Part shown: piece after piece, positions 42,116 through 48,718 of the stretch | Layout: the number at the start of each line of letters is the position of its first letter | Numbering within the stretch: the first letter of the stretch is position 1 | IMG/VR virus record: IMGVR_UViG_2597489870_000007 | Length of the DNA stretch: 48,718 nt | From: a virus | Taxonomy: Duplodnaviria > Heunggongvirae > Uroviricota > Caudoviricetes | Reading direction: 5' to 3' (one strand) | Notes under the pieces: model-generated | What the model was told of the DNA's origin: nothing | The model's input: the letters and a program-made list of their open reading frames with translations, nothing else | Database searches by the model: none | Program-made: the position numbers and the translations under genes

Positions 42116-42468
42116 ATGTTTTCGAAATGGAAGGGTTTCTTCGCGGGAAATGTGTACCGCGAGATCTGAAAGTGAACGAAACAAATGCTGAGTACCTGGT
42201 ACGTAAATTCGACGCGCTTGAAGCTAAATGTGCGGCACTGGAAAACAAAATAATACCAGTGTCAACTGAACTGCCACCAGCAAATGAAAGTGTTCTGTTA
42301 TTTGATGCTAATGGAGAAGGCTGGCTGATTGGCTGGCGTTCTCTCTGGTACACCTGGGGACAAAAAGAAACCGGAGAATGGCAGTGGACATTTCAGGTCG
42401 GGGACCTTGAAAACTTCAATATCACTCACTGGGCAGTAATGCCCAAAGCGCCGGAGGCTGGAGCATAA
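42106..42468 (+). CDS. Hypothetical protein, YfdS-like, DUF551-like C-terminus
   Basis: 120-aa ORF ending ...NFNITHWAVMPKAPE, overlapping the previous gene. Confidence 0.5.
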   Translation: MRMNVFEMEGFLRGKCVPRDLKVNETNAEYLVRKFDALEAKCAALENKIIPVSTELPPANESVLLFDANGEGWLIGWRSLWYTWGQKETGEWQWTFQVGDLENFNITHWAVMPKAPEAGA

Positions 42469-43088
42469 TGACCACATTTACCAATAAAGAACTGATTAAA
42501 GAAATCAAAGAACGAATCAGCAGCCTAGAGGTTCGAGACGATATTGAGCGCCGTGCTTATGAAATTGCTCTGGCATCGCTGGAAGAGGAGCCGGTGGCAT
42601 GGCTGCATTCAGACAATGGCTTAGGTATTCCGGCAATAACCAGGAGCAAAAACATTGCTGACAGTTGGTTATCAATGGGCTGGTATGTTCAGCCGCTATA
42701 TATAGCCAAGCCAGTACTGGTGGTGCCAGATGCTCGTCCGTCTTTAAATAATGGCATAGTCGGTTTTGATGAAGGCTGGAACGCCTGCCGCGCCACCATG
42801 CTTCATGGTGCCAAACCTGTAAGCCAGACTTACAAGTTGAACAAGCTGTCGGGCAACTCTCCGGTAACTCAGGATGGTTGGATAAGCTGTAGTGAGCGAA
42901 TGCCGAACGATAAACAGTATGTTTGGTGTTGGGGTAAGTCTTACGGCTGGACTGAGTGCGATACCTTCGAAGGGTATTACGATTGGTCGAGAAACAAATG
43001 GTGGGCAGTTACTGACGATGGGGAAGAACCGGCATCGAAAGTAACCCACTGGATGCCGCTACCGGAGCCACCGCAGGAGGTGAAGTAA
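42468..43088 (+). CDS. DUF551-domain protein (206 aa)
   Basis: C-terminus ...KVTHWMPLPEPPQE is the characteristic DUF551 signature common in prophage early regions. Confidence 0.55.
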   Translation: MTTFTNKELIKEIKERISSLEVRDDIERRAYEIALASLEEEPVAWLHSDNGLGIPAITRSKNIADSWLSMGWYVQPLYIAKPVLVVPDARPSLNNGIVGFDEGWNACRATMLHGAKPVSQTYKLNKLSGNSPVTQDGWISCSERMPNDKQYVWCWGKSYGWTECDTFEGYYDWSRNKWWAVTDDGEEPASKVTHWMPLPEPPQEVK

Positions 43089-43282
43089 TGAACAACTTAA
43101 TGACAACTAAACAAGTCGCCGACTTCTGTGGCGTTTCAGTATCGACCGTTCTTCGCTGGAACAGCGTAAACAGGAGAACTGGCCAGAAATACAGGCCTGA
43201 CTTTCCAGATCCTGATATTAAATCCTGCCCAAATAAATGGGCATCACGCAAGATATACAGGTTTGCTGGAGTTATTGAGTGA
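43088..43282 (+). CDS. AlpA-family transcriptional regulator / excisionase-like
   Basis: 64-aa ORF MNNLMTTKQVADFCGVSVSTVLRWNSVNRRTG..., HTH of the AlpA/Xis type, last gene before the integrase-proximal locus. Confidence 0.7.
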   Translation: MNNLMTTKQVADFCGVSVSTVLRWNSVNRRTGQKYRPDFPDPDIKSCPNKWASRKIYRFAGVIE

Positions 43283-43484
43283 TGGGTATTAGCTCATATC
43301 AGAACTAATACCCATCAATGACACAGAGCCAACTACCCACCCTGTGTCAGGGGCTAACTTTTAACACCATAATTCACCGCTAGATAAAAACTGTATTGCA
43401 TTGCACGAGCGGCGCAGCATTATCAGTTAGAGTGTCTTTACCTTGTTAGGCTCCACAGTTCGCACTGTCCAACGCCTGTCACTT

Positions 43485-46400
43485 TCACACGCTGCGCCTT
43501 CGAGAATATTCATTTAATCGCTGATAACGAACATCTTGCTCCAGTTGTGGAGCAGCTTGAACAATTTGAAGCAAGCATTGCCCCAACTCTCGAGGCCCCC
43601 AGTGTTGTTCGGCAATCACGGCATTCAGCAGGGATAGAGCGTCCGCAGGATATCGGCTGCAAATATCTGATTCTAGCAAAAGGCGAACGTCGTAGCTAAG
43701 GTGTTCGAGCGGTTGCAGCCAGTCCTGCACCACTGCCAAAGCCGCCGGAAATTCACCTCGGGCAGCAATCACCATACGAGTCAACGATTCGGATATGCGT
43801 GGGGTGGCCAAGTTGCGGGACTTTGGCCAAACCTGTTGCCAAAATGGCTGGACACGATTTTTCCAATACTCCTCGCGCTGATCGCCCGCACCTTCAAGTG
43901 CCTGGTATAACGCCTGCGCGGCTACCTCCAGACCTTCTTGTGGAAGAGCACTAATTGCCGTTCGGAACTCCTCCACGGTATATCCCTCGGTAGGGCCCAG
44001 AGCTGCATAAGTCAGGAAAATAGCGAATTGCTGCCGGTGCTCGCCAAGATCAGAATAGTGATTGGCGCTCTCCAAAAAATCTGACTTGAAAGCTATCAGC
44101 AACGGTTCATACAGGCGTGGCGACCAGAGGAAGCCTTCCCACACAGCTTTTGCTTCGACGGGATTACTCCAAGCAAACAAGGGCAATAGATACTGTTCGG
44201 TCCAAGGTCGATCTACGCGAAAAAATGCGATCAGCCGCGACCCCAGCAACACCCGACCATGGCGGAATAGCTCTATCTGTACATTACACAATTTGGTGAA
44301 AAGTGTTTTCAATTCAACAGGAAGCAAATCATTGTCATTCGGGTTCTGTTTGAACCATAGGGTGATCAGTGATTGCGTGACATGCCCAATGGGATGATTG
44401 ATCGCCGTAGAAACAGGATCATAGGTCTCAATTCCGTTTCGAATGGTGCTAGACTCTGGGCTTGTTTCTATCATCAGAACCCGACGACAAAGGGCCAGTA
44501 GAATCTCCTCGTGGCAGAGGATGGTCTTCGAAGCCTCCTCCATCCACCAAGTGACAGCGTGGGAAATCTCCTGAAGTACTGCGTCAGGCATGTCAAGCAC
44601 CAACGGTGCGGCGTACCGCCACGAACGCAAAATCATCCCTGGTTCAGCCCAAGTCTGCAGAGCTTCACGCCACCGACCAACAGGCCACACATCATCTTGT
44701 GATAGTTTACGTAACGCATACAGACTGTGAAAAAAGCGCGTACGGCAAACATCACTCCAAGTGTCCTCATAGAAAGGCAGTCTTTCTGGCATAGGCTTTG
44801 CGAGCCATTGCACTAATTCCTGCCACTTACGGGGCGCAATGTCGACATCTATACTCTCCTCGAAGCCTGGATCACCGGTTCCGCTCATCCAGTGAGAGAA
44901 TTCATCACGCTCGTTGGTTGCCAGTTGCCATTTTGGGTATGCTGTGGATATTTCCGTCAAACGTGTAGCCGCAGACTCTCCCAAAACAAGGCCCGCTCCC
45001 CTGAGCTTCGCTAGACACAACCAGACGGAATGAGCCACCAAATAATGCCACCTGTCTGCTTCCAAATTATCCTCGTACATCTCGCGCGGAGGCCCTGCCA
45101 AGATAGCAGTTTCCAGACGCTCTTGTGCAATTCCTGTCAGATGTCGTCCCTGCAAAACAAACAGTCTGAATACCTCTCGCCGAGTATCCGTGGCCCACAA
45201 CCACCATGAACCGTCCTCTAACAACCAATTAACCCACCGCTCAGGTGGTATGCAGTTGTCTTGGCTTGCGGCAAACAGTGCCAGACGTTTGAAGGTGGGA
45301 TATGGCAACTCAAACCAATTCTGAGCAATGCGCGAGGCCTGATCGCTGTCTTTGGCTCGAACGGCTAACCATGAATCCCGAAGTAATTCAATCAGGCTCA
45401 CCCAATCGCGGAACCCCCGGTTCTGCCAGTGCGGAGTGATGGACGGCAAATCCCAATGCGAGCGGTCGTGACGATCGTCGGACTCTCCCAACTCCCGCAA
45501 CAAGTCCAGTGCATCACGCAACAACTGCTGAAAATCTTCCAACAGGTATGGCAAGGACGATTTCCATGACTCGTCAGCAAGGTCGAACAGGGTTGAACGT
45601 ACGTAATCAGCAGTCAGCACCAGCTCCCAATCCACCAATTGCTTGATTCGCAAGGGTTCATCAGTGCTGCTCGAATCGTCTTCACTATAGCGAAACGGCC
45701 GCCTCAACATAACCTTGGGAGAAAGCAACCCGCGTAACTCCAAGCGCAATGTAGTCGTCAAGCCTTCATTCTTTAAGCGGTTTTGCCAACGATACAAATC
45801 CAGGTTCTGCAATGGCGATTTCACACGACCACTAAGCAGAAGCCGCCATAAAGTAGACATAGGTGGACCAGGAATAGCCAGGGGGGAATGCAAGAGAATT
45901 TCATCTAACTCAGAAGTCTTACGCTCCCGCATCAGTGCTGCTAAGCGATCTAGTTCGCTCTCAATCAGAAACATCCAACGGTCGTGTATTTGTCCGCCGC
46001 GTTCAGCAATCCATATGATCAACCTAGGGTCGCCCAGATAACGAACTAGCCAACGGGCTATATGGGACATTACGTCATCCCATTTGCTAGCACTGACACA
46101 TCCAGAAACCAGCGACATCTGCGGGGCCAGCTCATAGGGCGCAGGACGCTGAACCAGACTGAATCGGAGTTTCGGGTCAATTTCGACATGCGGAGATACA
46201 CAAAAGCGTGGCAGATCGCTGTATTTAAATCGTTCGTCCGAGAAAGCTTTCAATAACCAATCCAGCGGCGGTGCAGGATTGAGTTCCGCAAAGCGTTTTG
46301 CTGGTAAACCTGATTTATCTGACAAGGCCCACAACATCCGACCAACGAAATCGTCCTGACGAGTGCTGTCCTGCGGGCGGGCCAGAGCATGTTTGACGAC

Positions 46401-47312
46401 TATAGCCTTTTTGCCCTGTATACCATCTCGATAAGTATCTGCCCAAGCGTGCAACGTTTGATGCAGCACTGAATGATCAGTGGAGCCCGCCGGTACGGTG
46501 TAAAGGATAGGAGTGACCCCTTTGGCCTCCCACTCGATGGCTTTCCGGTGCTCCTGCCCCGGCTCACACTCCCCCAGTGCCCATACTTGTGGTGTGACTT
46601 CACCGAGCCTCCGATCTGCTGCAAGCGCATCCATCATGTAGCGCAGTACCGGGTCGTTGATGCTGTAGCCAACGAAGCAGACCACATAGTTACGAAATAA
46701 CTCACTCACAAAGCGAGCTGCCCAACGCTCAGTGAGATAAGCCAAGCCAAAGTCACCGCTGGTAACAACCAGACGATTCAGGGCAGTATCATCCGCCTTT
46801 TCCGGTAACAGCCCATGCAGGTATACAAGTCCATCCCAGCGGCTGTTTTTTGGAATTGGCAGCATCGGCGCTACATAGGCCTGAAAAGCCTGGCCTGTAC
46901 GTTTAGCTGCCACATGAAAGAGACGGTCAAAGTTGGTAGTGACCAATCGAAGGGCACCCTCGCGGCTACGGGCTAAACGTAACAGCGCCGCCTGAGTATC
47001 AATAGCGCCCCTACGACGGAGCTTTGGCTTAAGGGCTTTTTCCAACGCGCGTCGGACGGCTATACGCTGCCCTGGTAAGCGCCGTTCCAGCAAATCTAAT
47101 GTGCCGTCAAATTGCCCACGCTCGAAAACCTCACGCTCAATTTCTGAAAGTGTTGTTCCGTTCCTCTGGTAAATTAGTTCTACCAACCCTTTGAAACCAG
47201 GTAAACCAGCAGGGTAGGAAATGCCTGCTCCACAGAAGAACACAACGCGCCCTTCCTCGTGCGCCTGCAAAAACTCATCAGGAATATCAGGGCCGTTGGT
47301 AATGAATTGCAT
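43485..47312 (-). CDS. Large SIR2-domain protein (1,275 aa), candidate single-gene antiphage defence (DSR-like)
   Basis: Intact ORF with RBS GGAGGA. N-terminal 260 aa carry SIR2 signatures: VVFFCGAGISYPAGLPGF, TTNFDRL, VYLHGLL, CFVGYSINDP. The remaining 1,000 aa are Leu/Trp-rich with no Walker A motif. Sits between int and xis. Confidence 0.8.
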   Translation of the reverse strand: MQFITNGPDIPDEFLQAHEEGRVVFFCGAGISYPAGLPGFKGLVELIYQRNGTTLSEIEREVFERGQFDGTLDLLERRLPGQRIAVRRALEKALKPKLRRRGAIDTQAALLRLARSREGALRLVTTNFDRLFHVAAKRTGQAFQAYVAPMLPIPKNSRWDGLVYLHGLLPEKADDTALNRLVVTSGDFGLAYLTERWAARFVSELFRNYVVCFVGYSINDPVLRYMMDALAADRRLGEVTPQVWALGECEPGQEHRKAIEWEAKGVTPILYTVPAGSTDHSVLHQTLHAWADTYRDGIQGKKAIVVKHALARPQDSTRQDDFVGRMLWALSDKSGLPAKRFAELNPAPPLDWLLKAFSDERFKYSDLPRFCVSPHVEIDPKLRFSLVQRPAPYELAPQMSLVSGCVSASKWDDVMSHIARWLVRYLGDPRLIIWIAERGGQIHDRWMFLIESELDRLAALMRERKTSELDEILLHSPLAIPGPPMSTLWRLLLSGRVKSPLQNLDLYRWQNRLKNEGLTTTLRLELRGLLSPKVMLRRPFRYSEDDSSSTDEPLRIKQLVDWELVLTADYVRSTLFDLADESWKSSLPYLLEDFQQLLRDALDLLRELGESDDRHDRSHWDLPSITPHWQNRGFRDWVSLIELLRDSWLAVRAKDSDQASRIAQNWFELPYPTFKRLALFAASQDNCIPPERWVNWLLEDGSWWLWATDTRREVFRLFVLQGRHLTGIAQERLETAILAGPPREMYEDNLEADRWHYLVAHSVWLCLAKLRGAGLVLGESAATRLTEISTAYPKWQLATNERDEFSHWMSGTGDPGFEESIDVDIAPRKWQELVQWLAKPMPERLPFYEDTWSDVCRTRFFHSLYALRKLSQDDVWPVGRWREALQTWAEPGMILRSWRYAAPLVLDMPDAVLQEISHAVTWWMEEASKTILCHEEILLALCRRVLMIETSPESSTIRNGIETYDPVSTAINHPIGHVTQSLITLWFKQNPNDNDLLPVELKTLFTKLCNVQIELFRHGRVLLGSRLIAFFRVDRPWTEQYLLPLFAWSNPVEAKAVWEGFLWSPRLYEPLLIAFKSDFLESANHYSDLGEHRQQFAIFLTYAALGPTEGYTVEEFRTAISALPQEGLEVAAQALYQALEGAGDQREEYWKNRVQPFWQQVWPKSRNLATPRISESLTRMVIAARGEFPAALAVVQDWLQPLEHLSYDVRLLLESDICSRYPADALSLLNAVIAEQHWGPRELGQCLLQIVQAAPQLEQDVRYQRLNEYSRRRSV

Positions 47313-47494
47313 TCCTTTTCCTCCTATCCAATGTGCACGTTCATTCGAGTAAATGAAGGCAAGGGGTTACATCTTATTATACCGACCGTGCAAATCCGGC
47401 TTCCTAGCAAGCTACTTTACTTGCCAACTCATAATGTCCGAACTCCGAACAAAGCGGACTGCTAGATTTGATTGCGTTCTAGCTACGCAAAATA

Positions 47495-48718
47495 TCATTT
47501 CGAGCCTGAACGAGTACAAGTAACAATCGATTCAACTCTCTCCCACCATGCCTGGTAGGCTTTACGCTGTTCTTCTAGATAATCACTCTTGTCATAAACT
47601 TGCCATACACCTGGCAGTTTATGACCGAGCATTATTTCAGCAATATGAGGCGCAGTAAGATCAGAAAAGTTTGTTCGTGCTGTTCGTCTCAAATCATGAA
47701 GAGACCAGTGAGGAAATTGATACCCCAAACGCCGCCATGCGTACTGCATTAAATTGTAAGGCAGCGACTGCAATGATGTCCGACCAACTGGTTCCCTGCT
47801 TCCTTCCTTAGTAAAAAGCATATCGGAACCGTTGTTCATAGAGATAACGTATTTTATAAGCTCTTCAACCGGTTCAATAATGGGCCGCTTTAGCGGTTCG
47901 CCTGTTATATCCCCTGTCTTATGTCGTTCTGGTGGTACAGTCCATATTTTATTAATGAAATCAAAATCGTCCACCTTGGCAGTAATTAGCTCTGAACTAC
48001 GGCAACCAAAATGCAGCAATAGTTTAATGAAGGCCCGGTATTTAGGAACCATTCGAGAACCATCGATCGCAGCATAAAGGATTTTAATTTCATCATGTGT
48101 CAGAAACCGTTTCTTCTGACCTTTACGGATATCCATATCTTTACCCGTGATATCCGACAGCGGGCGAGTTTCAATGAGCTTTCTCTTATACGCCCAGACA
48201 TGGGCCTGCTTTGCGTTAATTAGCAATCGGTCTGCTATTGCTGGAGTCTTAGTGCTAAGAGGCTCCAGGACTTCTAACCAATCATGCAATGTAGCTGCAT
48301 CGTGAGGGATATTCCCGATTTTAGAGAACAGGTGCAGCTCAAACGAGCGGAGTATCTGTTCAGAACCTTTTTTATTTTTTACACAATATGCTTCATACCA
48401 AGCACGGATCACAGATTCTACCGTCATGGCTTCAGTAGCTTTACGTTTTTCTGCCAGCTTGACCAATCGTGGATTGCGGTTTGACTCGAGTTCACCACGA
48501 AGACGGATAACTTCTTCTCTGGCCTCTTTTAGTCCAGTTGCCGGGTAAGTTCCGATATCAAGACGCTCACCTTTCCCCGCCCACTGATAACGATATTGGA
48601 ACACTACGCGACCTTTCGGTGATACTCTAACAGACAGGCCATCACGATCGGATTTAACCAAAACCTTATCACGTTCCTTTCCAACGACTGAACGCAACCA
48701 CGCATCAGACAGCGCCAT
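47495..48718 (-). CDS. int: Tyrosine integrase (P4-like family)
   Basis: 407-aa ORF starting MALSDAWLRSVVGKERDKV with catalytic-region motifs (HDLRRT, MLGHKLPGVWQVYDK); start codon is the last three bases of the window, so att lies outside it. Confidence 0.9.
   Translation of the reverse strand: MALSDAWLRSVVGKERDKVLVKSDRDGLSVRVSPKGRVVFQYRYQWAGKGERLDIGTYPATGLKEAREEVIRLRGELESNRNPRLVKLAEKRKATEAMTVESVIRAWYEAYCVKNKKGSEQILRSFELHLFSKIGNIPHDAATLHDWLEVLEPLSTKTPAIADRLLINAKQAHVWAYKRKLIETRPLSDITGKDMDIRKGQKKRFLTHDEIKILYAAIDGSRMVPKYRAFIKLLLHFGCRSSELITAKVDDFDFINKIWTVPPERHKTGDITGEPLKRPIIEPVEELIKYVISMNNGSDMLFTKEGSREPVGRTSLQSLPYNLMQYAWRRLGYQFPHWSLHDLRRTARTNFSDLTAPHIAEIMLGHKLPGVWQVYDKSDYLEEQRKAYQAWWERVESIVTCTRSGSK

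What the first reader, a model, noticed from the sequence alone, without database searches (positions are those of the whole stretch)
43485..47312. Intact 1,275-aa SIR2-domain protein in the int-xis cargo slot: candidate DSR-like defence gene
The N-terminus has SIR2 NAD-binding and catalytic signatures (GAGIS, TTNFD with Asn, YLHG with His, GYSINDP). It is followed by about 1,000 aa of Trp/Leu-rich, probably helical sequence with no P-loop, so it is not a SIR2-STAND (Avs-type) protein, and no partner gene flanks it, so it is not ThsA/ThsB, SIR2-HerA or pAgo-SIR2. The architecture resembles single-protein defence-associated sirtuins (DSR1/DSR2-like) that deplete NAD+ on sensing phage structural proteins. 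It is the only large intact non-structural gene in a prophage that has otherwise lost tail-fiber, U and KilA-N function, and it carries its own strong RBS downstream of int.
Basis: partly seen in the sequence, partly recalled or inferred. Interest (0 to 1): 0.9.

Follow-up and report, generated by a model that had tools for sequence, protein, structure and literature searches.

The report
Known anti-phage sirtuin Dsr1 in prophage

Summary
The ORF at 43485-47312 (minus strand, 1,275 aa) is confirmed, along with all four SIR2 motifs and the absence of a P-loop. It is Dsr1. It matches the PADLOC Dsr1 model end to end (2,730 bits) and the NCBIfam equivalog NF041818 (2,053 bits against a cut-off of 1,400). 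The whole window is identical to the E. coli ETEC H10407 chromosome, where RefSeq already labels the gene dsr1 (WP_001159678.1).

The protein differs by one residue (F14 instead of L14) from EcDsr1 WP_029488749.1. A 2026 preprint reports that EcDsr1 defends E. coli against a few phages and is triggered by a phage major capsid protein through a helical-repeat sensor shared with Avs7.

The context claims also hold. The gene lies between a P4-type integrase and a small HTH gene, inside a decaying lambdoid prophage next to yjjG. The prophage has IS elements in gpU and KilA-N and a frameshifted tail fibre. The gene has its own AGGAGG ribosome-binding site and no partner gene. Related prophages carry other cargo in the same slot, including an anti-phage dCTP deaminase.

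Novelty: already known. The leftover points of interest are the F14 substitution at an otherwise invariant Leu, and three unannotated alternative cargo genes in the same slot.

The parts
43485..47312 (-). dsr1 coding sequence, 1,275 aa plus stop (WP_001159678.1)
   Evidence: ORF. PADLOC Dsr1 PDLC02183, 2,729.8 bits over 1-1275/1275. NCBIfam NF041818 Dsr1 equivalog, 2,053 bits against a cut-off of 1,400. RefSeq annotation 'dsr1' on the identical H10407 sequence.
46443..47312 (-). N-terminal SIR2 effector region (residues 1-290). The Pfam SIR2_2 core is residues 123-269 (46506-46946). GAGIS is at 47217-47231, the Asn127 codon at 46932-46934 and the His166 codon at 46815-46817.
   Evidence: Pfam match. 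Motif positions. Asn127 and His166 align with KomC N107 and H146, and PDB entry 9xvc is the KomC H146N mutant. Asn and His are invariant in 41 of 41 homologues.
43488..46442 (-). C-terminal sensor region (residues 291-1275), an all-alpha helical repeat
   Evidence: No Pfam domain at E <= 1. The AlphaFold2 model is all helices, with mean pLDDT 65 and pTM 0.41. Foldseek finds only generic alpha-solenoids at TM about 0.2. The literature describes it as a TPR-type sensor homologous to the Avs7 sensor (PMC12803255).
47271..47273 (-). Codon 14 (Phe), the only difference from the tested EcDsr1 (Leu)
   Evidence: Comparison with NCTC9112 WP_029488749.1. Leu in 41 of 41 homologues and in every other listed full-length E. 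coli cluster member.
47320..47325 (-). Shine-Dalgarno AGGAGG, 7 nt before the ATG
   Evidence: Read from the sequence.
47376..47381 (-). Perfect TATAAT hexamer 63 nt upstream of the ATG, a candidate -10 element with no good -35 (inference only)
   Evidence: Coordinates. The consensus promoter scan reported no site in this intergenic region. For ECOR17 dsr1, 300 bp of upstream DNA served as a native promoter (PMC9391042).
47495..48718 (-). Tyrosine integrase (407 aa), upstream of dsr1 on the same strand, at the prophage end next to yjjG
   Evidence: Pfam Arm-DNA-bind_3, Phage_int_M and Phage_integrase. RefSeq annotation and yjjG neighbour.
43088..43282 (+). 64-aa HTH ORF convergent with dsr1, a possible excisionase or DNA-binding protein that forms the other border of the cargo slot
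   Evidence: ORF. HTH_17 at 22.6 bits, HTH_23 and MerR are all below Pfam cut-offs. Annotated 'DNA-binding protein' WP_001061365.1 in strain TUM1886. Not annotated in H10407.
43340..43352 (+). Terminator-like hairpin plus T-run after the 64-aa ORF. It would end the plus-strand early operon before it runs antisense into dsr1.
   Evidence: Pattern scan. The scan found 6 such sites in the region against 4.7 expected, so this is weak evidence.

Best explanation
This is the known single-gene anti-phage system Dsr1 (defence-associated sirtuin 1), carried as cargo between the integrase and the early-left operon of a defective lambdoid prophage of E. coli ETEC H10407. The most likely mechanism has four steps:
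1. The roughly 985-residue C-terminal helical-repeat sensor holds the N-terminal SIR2 domain inactive.
2. During infection the sensor binds newly made phage major capsid protein.
3. That releases the SIR2 domain, with catalytic Asn127 and His166, to hydrolyse NAD+.
4. [quoted passage not shown]

Shown here: identity with Dsr1, intact catalytic residues, single-gene organisation, and location in a variable prophage slot. Taken from the literature on a protein that differs by one residue or on homologues: anti-phage activity, the capsid trigger, dependence on the effector domain, and NAD+ depletion. Inferred: autoinhibition by the sensor, and that the F14 allele behaves like the L14 allele.
For: - Full-length matches to curated Dsr1 models: PADLOC, 2,730 bits over 1-1275/1275; NCBIfam equivalog, 2,053 bits against 1,400.
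- RefSeq names the gene dsr1 on the identical sequence. The window equals NC_017633.1 5072386-5121103 with 0 mismatches.
- 1,274 of 1,275 residues are identical to WP_029488749.1 from NCTC9112, at the same locus. That accession is the EcDsr1 of PMC12803255. The preprint reports defence against a few phages, the phage ZL19 major capsid protein as the only trigger in a 73-gene screen, and loss of toxicity and defence when the effector domains are disrupted.
- A DSR1 protein depleted NAD+ during phi29 infection (Garb et al. preprint).
- ECOR17 dsr1 blocks T4 lacking nrdC.5 and transfers protection to MG1655 with 300 bp of native upstream DNA (PMC9391042).
- SIR2_2 domain at E = 9e-23. Asn127 and His166 align with the KomC NADase N107 and H146 and are invariant in 41 homologues.
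- There is no conserved neighbour across E. coli, Vibrio, Marinobacter and Nitrogeniibacter loci.
- The same slot holds an anti-phage dCTP deaminase in another strain.
Against: - No experiment was done on this exact allele.
- Its single difference, F14, replaces a Leu that is invariant in 41 of 41 homologues and in all other listed full-length E. coli alleles, so an effect on activity cannot be excluded.
- In the Garb et al. experiment the NAD+ depletion was transient and there was no culture collapse, so the abortive-infection outcome is not general.
- My model of the sensor has low global confidence (pTM 0.41), and the fold search could not confirm any specific relationship.
- No consensus sigma-70 promoter was found upstream.
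Confidence: 0.9

Rival explanations
1. The H10407-lineage allele is a functionally impaired or altered Dsr1. The Leu14-to-Phe change at an invariant position just before the NAD-binding strand and loop (VVFFCGAGIS) would weaken folding, NAD+ binding or regulation, leaving the gene as a relic in a decaying prophage.
For: Leu in 41 of 41 homologues at 74-82% identity and in every other listed full-length E. coli cluster member. The host prophage is decaying. In strain CUVET18-789 the same gene is broken by IS1203 (H8), which shows the gene can be lost.
Against: Leu to Phe is a conservative hydrophobic change. The 3,828-nt reading frame is fully intact. This exact protein is seen on 129 contigs, so the allele persists. 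All catalytic and motif residues are intact.
Confidence: 0.07
2. It works like DSR2: the C-terminal domain recognises a phage tail tube protein rather than the capsid protein, and the protein acts as a DSR2-type tetramer.
For: The overall layout is the same, with an N-terminal SIR2 domain and a large helical C-terminal sensor in one protein. DSR2 is the structurally characterised relative.
Against: No PADLOC Dsr2 model matched at E <= 1. Solved B. subtilis DSR2 chains (8k98, 8w56, 8wkt) match only residues 12-47, at E = 1.8-1.9. DSR2 is absent from the top 50 fold matches, although the model is poor. The genetic screen for EcDsr1 found the major capsid protein as the only trigger.
Confidence: 0.02
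3. It is a SIR2 enzyme with another activity (protein deacylase or ADP-ribosyltransferase) or a prophage housekeeping function, not a defence NADase.
For: SIR2 domains include deacylases. There are weak hits to NAD-dependent deacylase models (E about 0.2) and to sirtuin structures over the Gly-rich loop.
Against: Those hits score 10-11 bits against cut-offs of 221-243. The domain belongs to the SIR2_2 family. The best solved matches are defence NADases (KomC). The Dsr1 family has direct anti-phage and NAD+ depletion data.
Confidence: 0.01

Closest known systems
EcDsr1, WP_029488749.1 (E. coli NCTC9112), the Dsr1 studied in PMC12803255 / bioRxiv 10.64898/2026.01.04.697583
   Same: 1,274 of 1,275 residues are identical. 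It has the same integrase upstream (WP_001218277.1) and the same flanks, with 2 nucleotide differences in 5,719 bp. It matches the same curated family models.
   Different: Residue 14 is Phe here and Leu in the tested protein.
Dsr1 of E. coli ECOR17 (Srikant et al. 2022, PMC9391042)
   Same: A single dsr1 gene of E. coli that is active from its own upstream 300 bp. It blocks T4 that lacks nrdC.5.
   Different: I did not obtain the ECOR17 sequence, so its identity to this allele is unknown.
DSR1 tested by Garb et al. (bioRxiv 10.1101/2021.12.14.472415)
   Same: Same named family. It is a single SIR2 protein, and NAD+ falls during infection.
   Different: That gene was expressed in B. subtilis against phi29. 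The depletion was transient and there was no culture collapse. I did not determine which homologue it was. PADLOC holds three Dsr1 models, and this protein scores 2,730, 648 and 39 bits against them, so the family has distant branches.
DSR2 (B. subtilis 29R; PDB 8k98, 8w56, 8wkt and others)
   Same: One protein, with an N-terminal SIR2 NADase and a large helical C-terminal sensor of a phage structural protein.
   Different: There is no sequence relationship beyond the Gly-rich NAD loop (E = 1.9) and no PADLOC Dsr2 hit. The trigger is the tail tube for DSR2 and the major capsid protein for EcDsr1.
Avs7 (antiviral STAND family, PMC12803255)
   Same: The preprint reports a homologous bilobed helical-repeat sensor and the same trigger class, the major capsid protein.
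   Different: Dsr1 has no STAND NTPase module. No Walker A motif is present here. I could not test the sensor homology because no Avs7 sequence was available to me.
KomC SIR2 NADase (PDB 8zsf, 9xvc)
   Same: It is the best solved sequence match to the SIR2 domain (E = 2.8e-5 for residues 13-245), with the catalytic Asn and His aligned.
   Different: KomC is a 264-aa stand-alone SIR2 subunit of a multi-protein system and has no fused sensor.

Membership tests
Dsr1 (NCBIfam NF041818 equivalog; PADLOC Dsr1) | Full-length match to the curated family model above its cut-off | tested here: met
   NF041818: 2,053.3 bits against a cut-off of 1,400, over 1-1271 of the protein and 1-1263/1263 of the profile. 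PADLOC PDLC02183: 2,729.8 bits over 1-1275/1275.
Dsr1 (NCBIfam NF041818 equivalog; PADLOC Dsr1) | N-terminal SIR2 domain with the NAD-binding Gly loop and catalytic Asn and His | tested here: met
   SIR2_2 at E = 9e-23. GAGIS 28-32, Asn127 and His166. These align with KomC N107 and H146 and are invariant in 41 homologues.
Dsr1 (NCBIfam NF041818 equivalog; PADLOC Dsr1) | Long C-terminal helical-repeat sensor of the Avs7 type | tested here: inconclusive
   The model is all-alpha but low in confidence (pLDDT 65, pTM 0.41). Only generic alpha-solenoid matches were found, at TM about 0.2 and none at E <= 0.001. The Avs7 homology is claimed in the literature and was not re-tested.
Dsr1 (NCBIfam NF041818 equivalog; PADLOC Dsr1) | Single-gene system with no conserved partner | tested here: met
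   There are no ORFs of 50 aa or more in either flanking gap. The neighbours are unrelated in the V. cholerae, Marinobacter and Nitrogeniibacter loci.
Dsr1 (NCBIfam NF041818 equivalog; PADLOC Dsr1) | Protects against phage and lowers NAD+ on infection | not testable with these tools
   Reported for a protein that differs by one residue and for homologues.
DSR2 | Sequence or profile match to DSR2 | tested here: not met
   No Dsr2 model appears among the PADLOC hits at E <= 1. Solved DSR2 chains match at E = 1.8-1.9 over residues 12-47 only.
SIR2-STAND (Avs5 type) | STAND NTPase module with a Walker A motif between effector and sensor | tested here: not met
   No [AG]xxxxGK[ST] and no GK[ST] in the protein. 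No NTPase domain in Pfam.
Thoeris ThsA | SIR2 fused to a SLOG/STALD domain, with an adjacent TIR-domain ThsB gene | tested here: not met
   The only ThsA hit is weak (E = 1.2e-5, 22 bits) and covers the SIR2 part, residues 12-230. The flanking genes are an integrase and a 64-aa HTH ORF.
SIR2-HerA and SIR2-pAgo (SPARSA) | Adjacent HerA ATPase gene or pAgo gene | tested here: not met
   No such gene is present on either side.

The most novel reading that the evidence does not exclude
The Leu14-to-Phe change makes the H10407-lineage Dsr1 functionally different from the tested EcDsr1: dead, leaky, or altered in how the sensor restrains the SIR2 domain. Residue 14 is invariant in every other family member examined and lies just before the NAD-binding strand and loop. 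If so, this natural variant would mark a control point for activation.
Probability: 0.08. Interest if true: 0.3.

Novelty: already known. Interest (0 to 1): 0.1.

Why it matters
It matters little as a discovery. The gene is named in RefSeq, has dedicated NCBIfam and PADLOC models, and has been studied experimentally. The result is useful as a check on the scan: a reader working from raw sequence correctly recognised a defence sirtuin and its single-gene architecture.

Three small points may be worth a bench test:
- ETEC H10407, a widely used reference strain, carries an allele with a change at an invariant residue.
- The gene stays intact while its prophage decays, which fits retention for the benefit of the host.
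- The same integrase-adjacent slot holds a dCTP deaminase or uncharacterised genes in related prophages. That marks the slot as a small defence hotspot where unknown systems could be found.

Tried and rejected
- **Gao et al. 2020 (Science), the paper that defined DSR1.** It is not held under its DOI or PMC id. It is cited here only through papers that reference it.
- **Supplementary tables of PMC12803255.** None are held. I linked the window protein to EcDsr1 through the RefSeq annotation of NCTC9112 instead.
- **Structure of the sensor region.** The AlphaFold2 model, built from 42 sequences at 74-82% identity, reached only pLDDT 65 and pTM 0.41. Foldseek against the PDB gave only generic HEAT/ARM solenoids at TM about 0.2. 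This cannot confirm or refute a relationship to DSR2 or Avs7. I ran no further search on a weak model.
- **Promoter scan.** It found no consensus sigma-70 site in the int-dsr1 gap. A perfect TATAAT is present without a usable -35.
- **Self-triggering.** I asked whether the prophage's own capsid protein resembles the reported trigger. BLASTP of the resident lambda-E-like capsid protein against the T1 major capsid protein gave E = 1.9. There is no sequence similarity, and fold-level similarity was not tested.
- **Failed scripts.** Two Python calls failed on file naming, and one alignment call used the wrong frame. All were repeated correctly.
- **Rejected classifications.** SIR2-STAND, ThsA, SIR2-HerA, SIR2-pAgo and DSR2; see the membership tests.
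Full report
**Observation.** The ORF is exactly as described. It runs from 43485 to 47312 on the minus strand, from ATG to stop, and encodes 1,275 aa. The protein contains no Walker A motif and no GK[ST] tripeptide. Residues 291-1275 are 14.0% Leu and 4.4% Trp. AGGAGG lies 7 nt upstream of the ATG. The gene is separated by 182 bp from the stop of a 407-aa integrase on the same strand, and by 202 bp from a convergent 64-aa ORF. Neither gap holds an ORF of 50 aa or more.

**Identity.** Pfam finds one domain, SIR2_2 (PF13289), at residues 123-269 with E = 9e-23.
- The PADLOC defence library matches its Dsr1 model PDLC02183 over 1-1275 of 1,275 profile positions at 2,729.8 bits. A second Dsr1 model scores 648 bits. 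Only weak SIR2-level hits go to ThsA, SIR2 and LmuA models, and no Dsr2 model matches.
- NCBIfam matches NF041818, 'anti-phage defense-associated sirtuin Dsr1', an equivalog model, at 2,053 bits against a cut-off of 1,400.
- PHROGs has a full-length family, phrog_15208, of unknown function.

**Source of the window.** A megablast search of complete E. coli genomes shows that window 43000-48718 is 100% identical to E. coli ETEC H10407 (NC_017633.1), where the gene is annotated dsr1. The whole 48,718-base window equals the reverse complement of NC_017633.1 5072386-5121103 with no mismatch. The exact protein is WP_001159678.1 and is seen on 129 contigs. Its 90% identity cluster has 418 members.

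**Link to experiments.**
- A 2026 preprint (PMC12803255; later version 10.64898/2026.01.04.697583) studied 'EcDsr1 (WP_029488749.1)'. It reports that the Dsr1 sensor is homologous to the sensor of the STAND family Avs7, and that AlphaFold3 models show a bilobed, sharply bent helical-repeat architecture. EcDsr1 protected against only a few phages. [quoted passage not shown] - RefSeq annotation of strain NCTC9112 shows that WP_029488749.1 is encoded at the same locus, behind the same integrase WP_001218277.1. The window protein differs from it at one residue, F14 instead of L14, and the 5,719-bp region differs at 2 nucleotides.
- The Garb et al. preprint showed NAD+ depletion by a DSR1 expressed in B. 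subtilis during phi29 infection. The depletion was transient and there was no culture collapse.
- Srikant et al. showed that dsr1 of E. coli ECOR17 blocks a T4 mutant lacking nrdC.5. The gene transfers this protection to MG1655 when cloned with 300 bp of its own upstream DNA, and expressing NrdC.5 restores infection.

**Catalytic residues.** The best solved sequence match to the SIR2 region is the defence NADase KomC (8zsf), at E = 2.8e-5 for residues 13-245. In that alignment TTNFD pairs with KomC TTNYD (N107) and YLHG with KomC KFHG (H146), by my count from the printed alignment. H146 is the residue mutated in PDB entry 9xvc, 'KomC(H146N)'. In an alignment of 41 homologues the Asn, the His and the first Gly of GAGIS are invariant.

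**Sensor region.** No Pfam family matches residues 291-1275. An AlphaFold2 model of this region, built with 41 homologues as the alignment, is entirely helical but only moderately confident. Mean pLDDT is 65 and pTM is 0.41, with the best confidence in the last 450 residues or so. Foldseek against the PDB returns HEAT/ARM solenoids (SF3B1, karyopherins, CRM1) at TM about 0.2. None reach E <= 0.001, and DSR2 is not among the top 50. By sequence, solved DSR2 chains match only residues 12-47, at E = 1.8-1.9. The protein therefore shares DSR2's design but is not a DSR2 relative outside the SIR2 core. The Avs7-type homology of the sensor rests on the preprint, and I could not re-test it.

**Context.**
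- The prophage lies next to yjjG. It is lambdoid, with a lambda-like head and tail gene set, a LexA-family (ymfK-type) repressor and yfdP/Q/R genes.
- It is defective in H10407. gpU is split by ISCro1 (IS66 family), KilA-N is interrupted by an IS3-family element, and the tail fibre is frameshifted.
- The integrase has Arm-DNA-bind_3, Phage_int_M and Phage_integrase domains.
- The 64-aa ORF at 43088-43282 has only sub-threshold HTH matches (HTH_17 at 22.6 bits against a cut-off of 27). It is annotated 'DNA-binding protein' in strain TUM1886 and is not annotated in H10407. Calling it xis is plausible but unproven.

**The slot is variable.** Of 5,426 complete E. coli genomes, 72 carry at least 80% of the int-dsr1-flank region, while 1,075 match part of it. 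Related prophages at the same yjjG site keep the integrase and the DUF551/yfdR flank but carry other cargo:
- an anti-phage dCTP deaminase in CFSAN061770 (PADLOC dCTPase, 544 bits);
- proteins of 183, 239 and 342 aa in three other strains, with no PADLOC or Pfam match.

In strain CUVET18-789, dsr1 itself is interrupted by IS1203 (H8). Only one of 50,697 phage records carries the gene, an Stx2c-converting prophage record, again near one end.

**Family.** The protein search found 4,221 relatives at E <= 1e-5. The best 120 are 77-84% identical over the full length and come from Enterobacterales, Vibrio, Marinobacter, Thauera, Ferrovum, Acidithiobacillus and others. Neighbours differ in each case examined:
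- a Tn7-like element with type I-F Cas genes in V. cholerae;
- an integrase plus an IS91-type transposase in Marinobacter;
- a solitary insertion between an ATP synthase operon and a chemotaxis gene in Nitrogeniibacter.

This confirms a mobile, single-gene system.

**Mechanism.** The best-supported reading is that the helical sensor binds phage major capsid protein made late in infection. That activates the SIR2 NADase through Asn127 and His166, and NAD+ loss blocks phage production. Identity, catalytic residues and architecture are shown here. The trigger, the dependence on the effector and the NAD+ depletion come from the literature on a one-residue variant or on homologues. Autoinhibition by the sensor is inferred.

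The resident prophage's own lambda-E-like capsid protein has no detectable sequence similarity to the T1 capsid protein (E = 1.9). That is compatible with the prophage tolerating its own gene, but fold-level recognition was not tested.

**Caveat.** F14 replaces a Leu that is invariant in 41 of 41 homologues and in all other listed full-length E. coli alleles. The change is conservative and the allele is common (129 contigs). I rate loss of function as unlikely, at about 0.07, but it is the one feature that separates this gene from the tested one.

**Verdict.** The gene is Dsr1, already annotated, modelled and studied. Novelty is 'already known' and interest is low.

Noticed in passing
window 47271-47273 (codon 14 of dsr1): Phe14 replaces a Leu that is invariant in 41 of 41 family homologues and in all other listed full-length E. 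coli alleles. It is the only difference from the tested EcDsr1. The allele is seen on 129 contigs.
   Followed up: partly
L004 3001-3549 (-), L005 2670-3386 (-), L006 1926-2951 (-); equivalent to the window slot 43283-47494: Related yjjG-site prophages carry unannotated proteins of 183, 239 and 342 aa in place of dsr1, with no PADLOC or Pfam match. Another strain carries an anti-phage dCTP deaminase there (L003 2924-4519). The slot behaves like a small defence hotspot, so the unknown proteins are candidate new defence genes.
   Followed up: partly
window 42468-43088 (+): An intact 206-aa ORF ending in a DUF551 domain (E = 1.3e-17) is annotated in H10407 and TUM1886 as two pseudogene fragments. 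An ORF of the same length at the same position is annotated as intact in CFSAN061770 and RM13745. This looks like an annotation inconsistency rather than a real disruption.
   Followed up: partly
window 43088-43282 (+): The 64-aa HTH ORF that borders the slot is not annotated in H10407 but is called 'DNA-binding protein' WP_001061365.1 in TUM1886. Its Pfam HTH_17, HTH_23 and MerR hits are all below threshold, so its role as an excisionase is unproven.
   Followed up: partly
NZ_CP115312.1 (hit H8): In E. coli CUVET18-789 the same dsr1 is interrupted by an IS3-like IS1203 element and is annotated only as 'SIR2 family protein'.
   Followed up: no
L008 1-15524 (V. cholerae GCA_023163085.1): A Dsr1 homologue with 80% identity sits inside a Tn7-like element (TnsA-like, rve and TniB genes). 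Nearby are type I-F Cas genes (Csy2, Csy3, Csy4), a VspR-like regulator and a ResIII helicase. The arrangement resembles a CRISPR-associated transposon with defence cargo.
   Followed up: no
family-wide (alignment A1): Dsr1 is unusually uniform. The top 120 relatives from Gamma- and Betaproteobacteria are 77-84% identical over all 1,275 residues, and mean column identity in a 42-sequence alignment is 89%. This suggests recent horizontal spread, strong constraint on the whole sensor, or both.
   Followed up: no
window about 13112-17728 and about 32828-34056 (from L002 31377-35993 and 15049-16277): The prophage is disrupted by ISCro1 (IS66 family, tnpA/tnpB/transposase) inside gpU and by an IS3-family element inside a KilA-N gene. 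The tail fibre gene is frameshifted.
   Followed up: partly
window 1-234: The window starts inside a serine acetyltransferase gene (WP_001026781.1). It lies just beyond the tail fibre assembly gene, on the opposite strand, and may be a second cargo gene at the other end of the prophage.
   Followed up: no
LC727881.1 2049-5876 (L011 6001-9828): The only phage-collection record with dsr1 (99.9% identity) is an Stx2c-converting prophage record of 92,886 bp. The gene is unannotated there and lies about 1.6 kb from the insertion-site duplication.
   Followed up: partly
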